A stretch of 64,000 nt of DNA from a virus (taxonomy: Duplodnaviria; Heunggongvirae; Uroviricota; Caudoviricetes): IMG/VR virus record IMGVR_UViG_3300033075_001617, positions 13,560 to 77,559 of that record, one strand, 5' to 3'. The notes below the pieces were generated by a model. It saw only the letters and a list, made by a program, of their open reading frames with translations, was not told where the DNA came from and did no database searches. Below, in pieces: positions 29,690-29,758 of the stretch. A program made the translations under genes and the position numbers. Positions within the stretch are counted from its first letter, which is position 1. Each line of letters opens with the position of its first letter.

Positions 29690-29758
29690 TGATCCATACG
29701 GGGATCGAACCCGCCCTTGCAGTTTTAGAGACTGCTACCCCGCCGAGAGGGATGGACC
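29690..29758 (-). tRNA. candidate amber-suppressor tRNA (anticodon CTA)
   Basis: Acceptor GGTCCAT/ATGGATC 7/7, anticodon arm GCAGT-CTCTAAA-ACTGC (perfect stem, U33, A37), T-arm GCGGG-TTCGATC-CCCGT, discriminator A. D region short (CCC-TCTCGGC-GGG). T-loop polarity fixes minus strand. Confidence 0.55.

What the first reader, a model, noticed from the sequence alone, without database searches (positions are those of the whole stretch)
29690..29758. Candidate amber-suppressor tRNA (anticodon CUA)
At the 5' end of the array sits the best-folding full-length tRNA. It has a perfect 7-bp acceptor stem, a perfect 5-bp anticodon stem and a loop CTCTAAA with U33 and A37, which places CUA at positions 34-36. 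Phage-encoded suppressor tRNAs are the hallmark of phages that reassign TAG (or TGA) in late genes, as in crAss-like and Lak-type phages that use genetic code 15. The genes in this window read well in the standard code. If recoding exists it would affect other regions, probably the structural module. The neighbouring non-canonical tRNA-like RNAs could belong to the same translational-takeover programme.
Basis: partly seen in the sequence, partly recalled or inferred. Interest (0 to 1): 0.75.

Follow-up and report, generated by a model that had tools for sequence, protein, structure and literature searches.

The report
Amber suppressor tRNA gating neighbouring genes
The predicted tRNA is a real, evolutionarily conserved phage tRNA that reads the stop codon TAG, and its likely job is to let the ribosome pass conserved TAG codons in the two genes either side of it (a peptidyl-tRNA hydrolase and a DNA methyltransferase), not to recode the whole genome.

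Summary
ARAGORN calls a 70-nt tRNA with anticodon CUA at 29689-29758(-). Seven orthologues from related phage contigs keep the cloverleaf (99% of cells paired, 10 of 21 pairs with compensatory changes), and CTA never varies.

- The PTH2 peptidyl-tRNA hydrolase ends 9 nt upstream of the tRNA. It begins ATG TTG TAG ATT and has no other start codon before its conserved domain.
- The methyltransferase just after the tRNA-like array has TAG at codon 131. The 41 codons after it are under purifying selection (dN/dS about 0.1).

Both TAGs are conserved in relatives. The ATG-x-TAG-ATT start of PTH2 also occurs in three huge-phage genomes (462-735 kb).

TAG still ends about 10% of genes here. I found no other convincing in-frame TAG in the 64-kb window or in 10 kb beyond it in a relative. 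A complete 462-kb relative with the same PTH2 arrangement is not recoded.

Best reading: a gene-specific amber gate, with TAG probably read as Gln, in a large phage of Bacteroidota. Late-gene recoding in this genome is not excluded, because no structural genes were available.

The parts
29689..29758 (-). Amber suppressor tRNA: anticodon CUA in loop CUCUAAA, atypical short D arm, A73, no encoded CCA
   Evidence: ARAGORN; Rfam tRNA 27.7 bits; cloverleaf as minimum-free-energy fold; covariation across 7 orthologues
29768..30136 (-). PTH2-family peptidyl-tRNA hydrolase gene. It starts ATG TTG TAG ATT, and its stop codon lies 9 nt before the tRNA.
   Evidence: Pfam PF01981, E = 7e-9; translation; no ATG/GTG/TTG after the TAG before the conserved KLYLITRKDL core; same layout in 5 lineages and in 3 huge-phage genomes
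30128..30130 (-). In-frame TAG, codon 3 of PTH2, always followed by ATT
   Evidence: ATT is the rarest Ile codon in long ORFs of the window: 115 against ATC 534 and ATA 228
30180..30210 (-). Bacteroidetes-type promoter-like motif (TTTG-N19-TATGTTTG) upstream of PTH2; probable start of the PTH2-tRNA-array-methyltransferase transcription unit
   Evidence: The pattern occurs 7 times in the window against 0.43 expected, always on the minus strand. The TAnnTTTG element is invariant in relatives. No terminator-like site lies on this strand between PTH2 and the methyltransferase.
28871..29685 (-). Array of 10 tRNA-like elements packed 4-20 nt apart (7 of the 10 gaps are 4-6 nt) behind the suppressor tRNA. 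Four are 44-47 nt (A-type), three are 57-58 nt with a tetraloop hairpin in place of an anticodon arm (B-type), one is 72 nt, and two are tRNAs with large insertions. It appears to be co-transcribed; its role in suppression is not shown.
   Evidence: Coordinates and gaps; acceptor-stem covariation; Rfam tRNA hits at 29176-29319 and 28934-29112
28336..28857 (-). DNA methyltransferase gene, 173 codons, with an in-frame TAG at codon 131
   Evidence: Translation; Pfam MTS, weak; tblastn to phage methylases spans the TAG; full-length homologues
28462..28464 (-). In-frame TAG in the methyltransferase, followed by AGG. It is conserved in L005, L006/L008, L009 and L013. The closest full-length homologue has CAG (Gln) at this position.
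   Evidence: For the 41 codons after the TAG, dN/dS is 0.08-0.16.

Best explanation
The locus encodes a working amber suppressor tRNA that serves as a gene-specific translational gate.

Proposed mechanism:
1. A host-type (Bacteroidetes sigma-A-like) promoter drives one transcript: PTH2, then tRNA-CUA, then an array of tRNA-like RNAs, then the methyltransferase.
2. The tRNA is cut out by host RNase P and 3' processing, receives CCA, and is charged by a host synthetase. Glutamine is the most likely amino acid.
3. The charged tRNA competes with release factor 1 at UAG.
4. Two phage genes need this. PTH2 has UAG as its 3rd-5th codon, so failed read-through costs only a tiny peptide. The methyltransferase has UAG at codon 131, just before its conserved C-terminal segment.
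5. Elsewhere TAG remains an ordinary terminator, so suppression is presumably partial, dependent on context, or limited in time.

Coupling a peptidyl-tRNA hydrolase to suppressor activity would scale a translation clean-up enzyme with the amount of read-through.

Shown: the tRNA and its conservation; the conserved in-frame TAGs; purifying selection after the methyltransferase TAG; the lack of any alternative start for PTH2; the absence of wider recoding in the sequence inspected.

Inferred: co-transcription, charging with Gln, competition with RF1, and the physiological reason for gating PTH2.
For: The tRNA:
- ARAGORN call with anticodon CUA.
- Cloverleaf covariation in 7 orthologues, with CTA invariant.

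The methyltransferase:
- TAG at codon 131, in the same place in four other lineages at 71-98% identity.
- Downstream codons have dN/dS 0.08-0.16. They contain columns invariant among five aligned homologues: FREWL, LP and F.
- The closest full-length homologue has CAG at the site.

PTH2:
- ATG, 1-3 codons, TAG, ATT in five lineages at 67-98% identity.
- The same in LR756500, LR756501 and LR756504 at 37-43% identity.
- Database gene calls for the clade are all truncated at the N-terminus.
- In LR756501 a second TAG-ATT sits at codon 37 inside the conserved domain, where re-initiation cannot rescue the protein.

Linkage of tRNA and targets:
- A tRNA containing the CUA triplet lies directly after PTH2 in the window, L005, L006, L030 and the sister clade.
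- In L009 the original tRNA was disrupted where an ORF with weak HNH-endonuclease similarity is inserted. A different CUA tRNA now sits in the same slot.
- CUA tRNAs lie 0.8-2.1 kb from PTH2 in LR756500 and LR756501.

Specificity:
- These are the only TAGs in the window with conserved coding sequence on both sides.
- They lie within 0.4 kb and 1.3 kb of the tRNA.

Promoter and host:
- Host-type promoter motif enriched, one copy just upstream of PTH2.
- Primase-helicase homologues come from Flavobacterium, Cellulophaga and Tenacibaculum phages.
Against: - No direct evidence of aminoacylation or read-through exists.
- The D arm is atypical and the tRNA scores below the Rfam threshold.
- TAG ends about 10% of genes. 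An efficient suppressor would extend those proteins.
- In this window terminal TAGs are never followed by A while both read-through sites are. That pattern does not hold in relatives.
- The PTH2 case alone could be a three-codon leader ORF followed by re-initiation at the invariant AUU.
- In the sister clade the orthologous tRNA has a 6-nt loop CCCUAA on a 7-bp stem, which is not a normal decoding loop.
- The amino acid rests on one alignment column. More distant homologues have E, P, D, K or A there.
- One divergent homologue (L012) has TAA at the same codon, which a CUA tRNA could not read.
Confidence: 0.7

Rival explanations
1. Genome-wide or late-gene TAG reassignment (code 15). The suppressor would exist mainly to translate structural and lysis genes outside the window, and the two TAGs found here would be incidental members of a large recoded set.
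For: - Phage suppressor tRNAs go with TAG-to-Gln recoding concentrated in late genes, while the early regions stay compatible with the standard code (Borges et al. preprint).
- The window holds replication and nucleotide-metabolism genes only, so late genes were not seen.
- Some huge phages, including the Lak phages of the Mahaphage clade, reassign UAG (Al-Shayeb et al.).
- The closest full-length homologue has Gln at the methyltransferase TAG.
Against: - TAG is not depleted as a terminator: 9 of 73-80 genes.
- Both in-frame TAGs lie within 0.4 and 1.3 kb of the tRNA. That is unlikely for a random sample of a recoded genome: roughly (3.4/64)^2, my own estimate.
- No in-frame TAG occurs in the two giant ORFs beyond the window in L019.
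- The complete 462-kb relative LR756500 has the PTH2 gate and a CUA tRNA 0.8 kb downstream. Yet it has 27 TAG terminators and lower coverage with TAG as sense (0.876 against 0.887). Of its in-frame TAG candidates I judged only PTH2 and one other convincing.
- 50-kb pieces of LR756500 and LR756501 show in-frame TAG only in PTH2.
Confidence: 0.2
2. The CUA tRNA does not decode. It is one more member of the tRNA-like array, acting as a decoy, a processing signal or a binding partner for some protein. The TAGs are handled otherwise: PTH2 by termination of a mini-ORF and re-initiation at AUU, and the methyltransferase as a truncated or inactive product.
For: - It heads an array of elements that clearly lack anticodons.
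- Its D arm is atypical and its Rfam score is below threshold.
- ATT after the PTH2 TAG is invariant although ATT is the rarest Ile codon, as a start codon would be.
- The sister clade has a 6-nt loop.
- Xanthomonas jumbo phage XacN1 carries CUA tRNAs for which no targets were found (PMC5852040).
Against: - The 7-nt loop CUCUAAA with U33 and A37 and the CTA triplet are strictly conserved while the stems covary.
- The same loop occurs in independent CUA tRNAs of LR756500, LR756501 and L009.
- The 41 codons after the methyltransferase TAG are under strong purifying selection, and no start codon directly follows the TAG.
- LR756501 PTH2 has a second TAG-ATT at codon 37 within the catalytic domain.
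- When the tRNA was disrupted in L009 it was replaced by another CUA tRNA.
Confidence: 0.07
3. The in-frame TAGs are recent nonsense mutations, pseudogenes or assembly errors, and the tRNA is unrelated to them.
For: A single in-frame stop in a metagenomic contig is often an error. The truncated proteins were called as such by the gene callers.
Against: - The same codon is TAG in independent assemblies from different samples and sources: JGI, Logan, NCBI and ENA.
- This holds across 67-98% protein identity, and for PTH2 down to 37-43%.
- Downstream dN/dS is about 0.1.
Confidence: 0.02

Closest known systems
Phage suppressor tRNAs of TAG-recoded (code 15) crAss-like, Lak and other gut phages (Ivanova 2014; Yutin 2021; Borges et al. 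preprint 10.1101/2021.08.26.457843; Peters et al. PMC9523058)
   Same: A phage-encoded CUA tRNA in a phage whose likely host is Bacteroidota. In-frame TAG occurs in phage genes. The one informative site is Gln (CAG) in the closest full-length homologue. The idea that in-frame stops hold back expression until the tRNA is available applies here too.
   Different: Here TAG is still a common terminator. Coding density does not rise under code 15. Only two genes in 64-74 kb carry in-frame TAG, and both are the tRNA's immediate neighbours. One target carries the TAG at codons 3-5 in every lineage. The genome has 52% G+C, not the low G+C proposed as the route to recoding.
'Code change module' of Jade phages (suppressor tRNA, TrpRS and RF1 placed upstream of a TGA-containing lysis cassette; Borges et al.)
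   Same: A suppressor tRNA physically adjacent to the genes whose in-frame stops it reads, together with a translation-related protein gene.
   Different: The stop is TAG, not TGA. The associated protein is a PTH2 peptidyl-tRNA hydrolase that itself carries the stop, whereas the Jade module genes are in standard code. The gated genes are not lysis genes. No synthetase or release factor was seen in the window.
Orphan CUA suppressor tRNAs of jumbo phages with standard code, e.g. Xanthomonas phage XacN1 (PMC5852040)
   Same: A large phage rich in tRNAs, with a CUA tRNA, a peptidyl-tRNA hydrolase gene and no genome-wide recoding.
   Different: In XacN1 no target genes were found by reading through terminal TAGs. 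Here two targets are identified, one of them by looking for a TAG right after the start codon.
prfB (release factor 2) autoregulation through an in-frame UGA at codon 26 in E. coli (my own knowledge, not tested here)
   Same: A translation-termination or quality-control factor gene carries a conserved premature stop near its 5' end, so its own synthesis reports on how that stop codon is being read.
   Different: prfB passes the stop by +1 frameshifting, and the sensed factor is its own product. Here the frame is unchanged, the passing agent is a dedicated tRNA encoded next door, and PTH2 is not known to act at UAG.
Classical E. coli amber suppressors supF, supD and supE (my own knowledge)
   Same: Anticodon CUA. 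The loop CUCUAAA is what a G34C change gives in tRNA-Tyr (supF) or a G35U change gives in tRNA-Ser (supD).
   Different: This is not a point mutant of a recognisable host or phage tRNA. The variable arm is short, the D arm is atypical, and the discriminator base varies (A, G or U) among orthologues. The acceptor stem most resembles the phage's own tRNA-Arg genes.

Membership tests
Amber suppressor tRNA (tRNA-Sup-CUA) | Cloverleaf with acceptor, D, anticodon and T arms | tested here: met
   ARAGORN. The minimum-free-energy fold is a cloverleaf. 99.3% of cells are paired and 10 of 21 pairs are compensatory across 7 orthologues. The D arm is short and atypical, and Rfam gives 27.7 against 29 bits.
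Amber suppressor tRNA (tRNA-Sup-CUA) | 7-nt anticodon loop with U33, C34 U35 A36 and a purine at 37 | tested here: met
   The loop is CUCUAAA in the window, L005, L006, L030 and the L009 replacement, and in LR756500 and LR756501. It is not met in sister-clade orthologues L014, L015 and L017, which have the 6-nt loop CCCUAA.
Amber suppressor tRNA (tRNA-Sup-CUA) | In-frame UAG codons in genes of the same genome that need read-through | tested here: met
   Methyltransferase codon 131 and PTH2 codon 3
Amber suppressor tRNA (tRNA-Sup-CUA) | Aminoacylation and insertion of an amino acid at UAG | not testable with these tools
   Needs tRNA charging assays or peptides spanning the TAG
Genetic code 15 phage (TAG = Gln) | TAG rarely or never used as a terminator | tested here: not met
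   9 of 73-80 predicted genes in the window end in TAG, including Tpt1 and the ligase, whose Pfam domains end just before it. About 10-12% of genes in relatives do.
Genetic code 15 phage (TAG = Gln) | Longer ORFs or higher coding density when TAG is read as sense | tested here: not met
   Window 0.855 against 0.850 with a lower model score. Complete relative LR756500 0.887 against 0.876.
Genetic code 15 phage (TAG = Gln) | Many in-frame TAGs, enriched in structural and lysis genes | tested here: inconclusive
   Only 2 genes in 64 kb, and none in 10 kb beyond the window in L019. No structural genes of this genome were available. The complete relative LR756500 shows no such enrichment.
Genetic code 15 phage (TAG = Gln) | TAG aligns with Gln in homologues | tested here: inconclusive
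   One informative site. The closest full-length homologue has CAG. One other has Q. More distant homologues have E, P, D, K or A.
tRNA-Pyl (the ARAGORN label) | 6-bp anticodon stem, 3-nt variable loop and one base between acceptor and D stems (from my own knowledge of tRNA-Pyl) | tested here: not met
   5-bp anticodon stem, 4-nt variable loop and a canonical UUCGAUC T loop. The label only reflects the CUA anticodon.
tRNA-Pyl (the ARAGORN label) | pylS and pylBCD genes present in the genome | tested here: inconclusive
   No pyl genes appeared among the Pfam and PHROG hits for the roughly 45 window proteins searched. Smaller ORFs and the rest of the genome were not searched.

The most novel reading that the evidence does not exclude
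A conserved amber gate on peptidyl-tRNA hydrolase. Across a group of very large Bacteroidota phages (this clade, its sister clade, LR756500, LR756501 and LR756504), PTH2 always starts ATG-(1-3 codons)-TAG-ATT and sits beside a CUA tRNA. The genomes, where inspected, otherwise keep the standard code. The suppressor tRNAs of such 'standard-code' huge phages would then not be orphans or first steps toward recoding. They would be part of a small dedicated circuit in which a translation clean-up enzyme, and here also a DNA methyltransferase, is made only in proportion to suppressor activity against RF1.
Probability: 0.45. Interest if true: 0.75.

Novelty: new variant of a known kind. Interest (0 to 1): 0.65.

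Why it matters
Phage suppressor tRNAs are usually read as markers of whole-genome or late-gene recoding. When no recoding is seen they are left unexplained, as with the CUA tRNAs of XacN1.

Here the targets can be named. They are the tRNA's own neighbours, and one of them is a translation quality-control enzyme whose amber codon near the start is conserved down to 37% protein identity in genomes of 462-735 kb. That points to gene-specific stop-codon gating as a separate use of suppressor tRNAs.

It also gives a simple annotation rule: look for ATG-x-TAG directly upstream of ORFs that seem to lack a start codon. It explains why gene callers truncate or miss PTH2 and the methyltransferase in these phages. 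The system is compact and testable, consisting of one tRNA and two reporter-like genes.

Tried and rejected
- **Exact look-up of a window protein** (UvsX-like) in the assembly index found nothing.
- **IMG/VR scans** found nothing, either with the FtsH-like protein or with the tRNA sequence.
- **The metagenome scan** with a degenerate tRNA pattern found nothing.
- **The GTDB genome scan** with the 1017-aa protein found nothing. The rest of this genome, including its structural genes, could not be reached.
- **All-frame BLAST between close relatives** was uninformative, because every frame aligns at 95-98% DNA identity. I repeated it with divergent relatives only.
- **The +4 base as a discriminator** held in the window: both read-through TAGs are followed by A, and none of the 9 terminal TAGs is. 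It did not hold in relatives.
- **A leaderless-mRNA idea for PTH2** was dropped once a conserved Bacteroidetes-type promoter was seen about 45 nt upstream.
- **ATG-x-TAG-ATT as a general gene-start signal** was rejected. In the window it precedes a long ORF only at PTH2. In LR756500 the other matches have ordinary start codons nearby.
- **A-type elements as HDV-like 'theta' ribozymes**, which are known next to phage suppressor tRNAs, were rejected by eye. Their 5' and 3' ends pair like an acceptor stem and leave no room for P4 and P2. Rfam gave no ribozyme hit.
- **Window TAG candidates at 11591(-) and 22017(+)** from the coding-potential scan lie at gene junctions or opposite real genes.
- **Assigning the amino acid from identity elements** failed. 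The discriminator base varies among orthologues (A, G or U), and the tRNA resembles no standard isoacceptor.

Full report
**The observation**

ARAGORN reports eight tRNAs in the window. One lies at 29689-29758 on the minus strand with anticodon CTA. The 'Pyl' label only reflects the anticodon.

Read on the minus strand, the sequence has these features:
- a 7-bp acceptor stem with one G.U pair
- a short D arm
- a 5-bp anticodon stem
- the loop CUCUAAA, with U33, C34 U35 A36 and A37
- a 4-nt variable loop
- a canonical UUCGAUC T arm
- A73, and no encoded CCA

Taken alone it is borderline. Rfam's tRNA model gives 27.7 bits against a gathering score of 29. The folding energy is unremarkable (z = -1.36).

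**Setting**

The window has 52.5% G+C and most genes lie on the minus strand. It carries replication and nucleotide-metabolism genes:
- ribonucleotide reductase, primase-helicase, a helicase, a UvsX-like recombinase, a 5'-3' exonuclease and a sigma-70 family factor
- ClpB-like and FtsH-like proteins
- a Macro domain protein, Tpt1/KptA and an ATP-dependent ligase

.

Two lines of evidence point to a Bacteroidota host. The primase-helicase finds only phages of Flavobacterium, Cellulophaga, Tenacibaculum and Maribacter. The Bacteroidetes promoter pattern TTTG-N17-23-TAnnTTTG occurs 7 times against 0.43 expected, always on the minus strand.

No structural genes were recognised in the window.

**The tRNA is a conserved gene**

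Related contigs were found through proteins next to the tRNA. A tRNA with the CUA triplet in its anticodon loop sits directly after the PTH2 gene in L005, L006 and L030, and in the sister clade L014, L015 and L017.

Seven orthologues were aligned. 99.3% of cells pair and 10 of 21 pairs have changed on both sides. Slid control structures give at most 2 such pairs and 38-54% paired. CTA never varies.

In L009 the original tRNA is broken: only its 3' half remains, fused to another element. An ORF with weak similarity to HNH endonucleases is inserted there. A different, well-folding CUA tRNA with the same CUCUAAA loop now occupies the slot right after PTH2 (fold z = -4.6; Rfam tRNA-Sec 46.5 bits). 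So the function was replaced, not lost.

**First target: the methyltransferase**

The first gene after the array (28336-28857, minus strand) translates as ...SPAWMTGDT*RQAGFREWL...IHIHKP*, with TAG at 28462-28464.
- Phage methylases align across the stop in one piece. The part after it contains columns that are invariant in that five-sequence alignment: FREWL, LP and F.
- In the protein database, eight homologues at 49-98% identity all end exactly at ...WMTG-x-T.
- Fetching the DNA showed TAG at that codon in L005, L006/L008, L009 and L013. In each, the next 41 codons are open and conserved.
- Between TAG-bearing lineages that downstream segment has dN/dS of 0.08-0.16. For example, window against L006 shows 13 synonymous and 11 non-synonymous differences. 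So it is translated.
- The closest full-length homologue (L010, 76% identity) has CAG, Gln, at the site. More distant homologues have E, Q, P, D, K or A.
- A 49%-identical homologue (L012) has TAA at the same codon, again with a conserved downstream frame.

**Second target: PTH2**

The gene ending 9 nt before the tRNA is a PTH2-family peptidyl-tRNA hydrolase (Pfam E = 7e-9). Its frame reads ATG TTG TAG ATT CAC TCG ACA CAG AAG CTT TAC CTC.... After the TAG there is no ATG, GTG or TTG before the conserved KLYLITRKDL...AQAVQAAHA core.

Every lineage has the same design:

| Lineage | Start of PTH2 |
|---|---|
| Window, L005, L009 | ATG TTG TAG ATT |
| L006 | ATG AAG AAC TGC TAG ATT |
| L014 | ATG ACC ACG TAG ATT |
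| L015 | ATG AAC ACG TAG ATT |
| L017 | ATG AAC AGC TAG ATT |

- Database gene calls for this clade all start at internal codons (79-104 aa). More distant PTH2 proteins have 1-13 residues before the core.
- The one clade member with an unbroken N-terminus (L030) has an IS605/TnpB element inserted just upstream, which rebuilt the 5' end.
- The same start occurs in three huge-phage genomes whose PTH2 is only 37-43% identical: LR756504 (ATG ACA TAG ATT), LR756500 (ATG AAG TAG ATT) and LR756501 (ATG TCG TAG ATT).
- In LR756501 a second TAG ATT lies at codon 37, inside the conserved domain. Re-initiation at AUU therefore cannot be the general explanation.
- CUA tRNAs lie 0.8 kb from PTH2 in LR756500 and 2.1 kb in LR756501, and share the CUCUAAA loop.
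- ATT is the rarest Ile codon in the window's long ORFs (115 against ATC 534 and ATA 228), yet it always follows this TAG. This suggests a constraint on the 3' context.

**Local or general recoding?**

*In this window*
- With a simple gene model, TAG ends 9 of 73-80 genes. They include Tpt1 and the ligase, whose Pfam domains end just before the TAG.
- Reading TAG as sense does not raise coverage (0.855 against 0.850) and lowers the model score.
- Two scans looked for TAGs with coding potential on both sides. A comparison of window 18-40 kb with relatives at 30-75% protein identity was also run. Together they leave only the methyltransferase and PTH2.

*Beyond the window*
- An 86%-identical relative (L019) reaches 10 kb beyond the right end. 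It holds two giant ORFs of 1928 and 1505 aa without in-frame TAG.

*In a complete relative*
- The rest of this genome could not be reached, so I assembled the complete 462-kb relative LR756500, which has the PTH2 gate.
- Under the standard code it has 604 genes, with 491 TAA, 86 TGA and 27 TAG terminators and coverage 0.887. With TAG as sense, coverage is 0.876 and the score is lower.
- Of three internal and ten start-proximal TAG candidates, inspection leaves PTH2 and perhaps one small unknown ORF. The others have an ATG just after the TAG.
- A 50-kb piece of LR756501 shows an internal TAG only in PTH2.

In this phage group, then, the CUA tRNA goes with a very small set of TAG-containing genes. 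Both TAGs in the window lie within 0.4 and 1.3 kb of the tRNA. By my own rough estimate that is unlikely for a random sample of a recoded genome: about (3.4/64)^2.

**Mechanism**

The promoter-like site at 30180-30210 has a TAnnTTTG element that is invariant in relatives. No terminator-like site lies on this strand before the methyltransferase. The array elements are tightly packed, most of them 4-7 nt apart.

I therefore infer one transcript: PTH2, tRNA-CUA, tRNA-like array, methyltransferase.

- The tRNA must be processed, given CCA and charged by host enzymes. After that it competes with RF1.
- A TAG at codons 3-5 is a cheap gate, because failure yields only a short peptide.
- The gate makes PTH2 synthesis track suppressor activity.
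- A peptidyl-tRNA hydrolase is a plausible clean-up partner for read-through. This reasoning is inference only.
- The amino acid is probably Gln, for three reasons:
  - CAG is found in the closest homologue.
  - Phages with standard-code hosts are only known to read TAG as Gln.
  - CUA tRNAs are prone to charging by GlnRS. This last point is from my own knowledge.
- Identity elements give no answer. The discriminator base varies among orthologues, and the acceptor stem resembles the phage's tRNA-Arg genes.

**Comparison with what is known**

Phage suppressor tRNAs and TAG recoding are well described. The Jade 'code change module' places a suppressor next to its targets. XacN1 has CUA tRNAs with no known targets.

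What differs here:
- The target set is small.
- The targets adjoin the tRNA.
- TAG is still in ordinary use as a terminator.
- A conserved amber codon sits near the start of a translation quality-control gene, across genomes from this clade to 735-kb phages.

I rate it a new variant of a known kind.

**Open points**
- The late genes of this genome were not seen.
- The sister-clade loop CCCUAA on a 7-bp stem is not a normal decoding loop.
- The TAA in the L012 methyltransferase and the UUA tRNA after an unbroken PTH2 in LR745208 hint at an ochre counterpart.
- How the roughly 10% of genes ending in TAG avoid harmful extension is unknown.

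Noticed in passing
window 28871-29685 (-): Behind the suppressor lies a tightly packed array of non-canonical tRNA-like RNAs (gaps of 4-20 nt, most 4-7). Four 'A-type' elements of 44-47 nt have an acceptor-like stem, a mini hairpin and a T-arm-like hairpin. Three 'B-type' elements of 57-58 nt have an acceptor stem, a hairpin capped by a GNRA or UUCG tetraloop in place of the anticodon arm, and a canonical T arm. 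One element is 72 nt. Acceptor stems and hairpins covary among copies and relatives, so these are real structured RNAs without anticodons. Their function is unknown.
   Followed up: partly
window 29177-29317 (-) and 28934-29112 (-): Two tRNAs carry large insertions. One is tRNA-Ile(GAU)-like, with 72 nt inserted after position 37 of the anticodon loop, which is the canonical intron site of archaeal and eukaryal tRNAs (Rfam 52.3 bits). The other has about 110 nt in the variable region (37.3 bits). Both are conserved in L006 and L009, and similar ones lie upstream of the methyltransferase in L012. The insertions are too short for group I introns.
   Followed up: partly
window 4012-4545 (-), 8476-9588 (-), 30712-31317 (-): The window encodes Tpt1/KptA RNA 2'-phosphotransferase (Pfam E = 7e-52), an ATP-dependent ligase with weak RNA-ligase similarity, and a Macro domain protein. 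Together with the insert-bearing tRNAs, these recall the eukaryal tRNA-splicing pathway and its ADP-ribose-phosphate by-product. An ADP-ribosyltransferase (ART-PolyVal) lies at 20646-21164 (+).
   Followed up: no
L006 2617-4440: A relative encodes a TROVE (Ro60-like) protein about 4 kb upstream of the tRNA-like array. Bacterial Ro proteins partner with Y RNAs that have tRNA-like modules. Weak YrlA hits, far below threshold, appeared in the array. The window itself has no TROVE gene at the corresponding position.
   Followed up: no
L014 10309-10382, L015 10281-10354, L017 10324-10397: In the sister clade the tRNA orthologous to the suppressor has a 7-bp anticodon stem and a 6-nt loop CCCUAA. 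ARAGORN calls it tRNA-??? in L014 and misses it in L015 and L017. The adjacent PTH2 still carries ATG-x-x-TAG-ATT. How, or whether, this tRNA decodes UAG is unexplained.
   Followed up: partly
L009 8163-8990: An ORF with weak Pfam similarity to HNH endonucleases is inserted next to PTH2. With it comes a different CUA tRNA that has a tRNA-Sec-like 6-bp D stem. Downstream, the 3' half of the old suppressor is fused to a B-type element. This looks like replacement of a tRNA allele associated with a homing endonuclease.
   Followed up: partly
L012 2709-3225; L035 3001-3481: There are hints of an ochre version. A 49%-identical methyltransferase has TAA at exactly the codon that is TAG here, with a conserved downstream frame. 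In the 485-kb phage LR745208 an unbroken PTH2 is followed about 90 nt later by a tRNA with anticodon UUA.
   Followed up: no
window 27914-28339 (-): The 141-aa ORF overlapping the methyltransferase stop has no Pfam hit. It is 91% identical to its L006 counterpart, whereas most neighbouring proteins are 55-76% identical. That is unusually strong conservation for a protein of unknown function.
   Followed up: no
window 15856, 20474, 30180, 31260, 40554, 46631, 55062 (all -): Seven matches to the Bacteroidetes promoter pattern TTTG-N17-23-TAnnTTTG were found against 0.43 expected, all on the main coding strand. The phage also encodes its own sigma-70 family factor at 45233-46090 (-).
   Followed up: partly
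L030 2364-3554: An IS605-family TnpB/OrfB gene is inserted immediately upstream of PTH2 in one lineage. It removed the native promoter and the ATG-x-TAG-ATT start and gave PTH2 a new N-terminus without a stop codon.
   Followed up: partly
window 4691-6223 (-) and 60944-64000 (-): There is a 510-aa protein with a glutamate-synthase central domain (Pfam E = 1e-71). There is also a very large ORF with no family hit. It is 1505 aa in relative L019, where it is preceded by a 1928-aa ORF with internal repeats. Homologues occur in contigs up to 447 kb.
   Followed up: no
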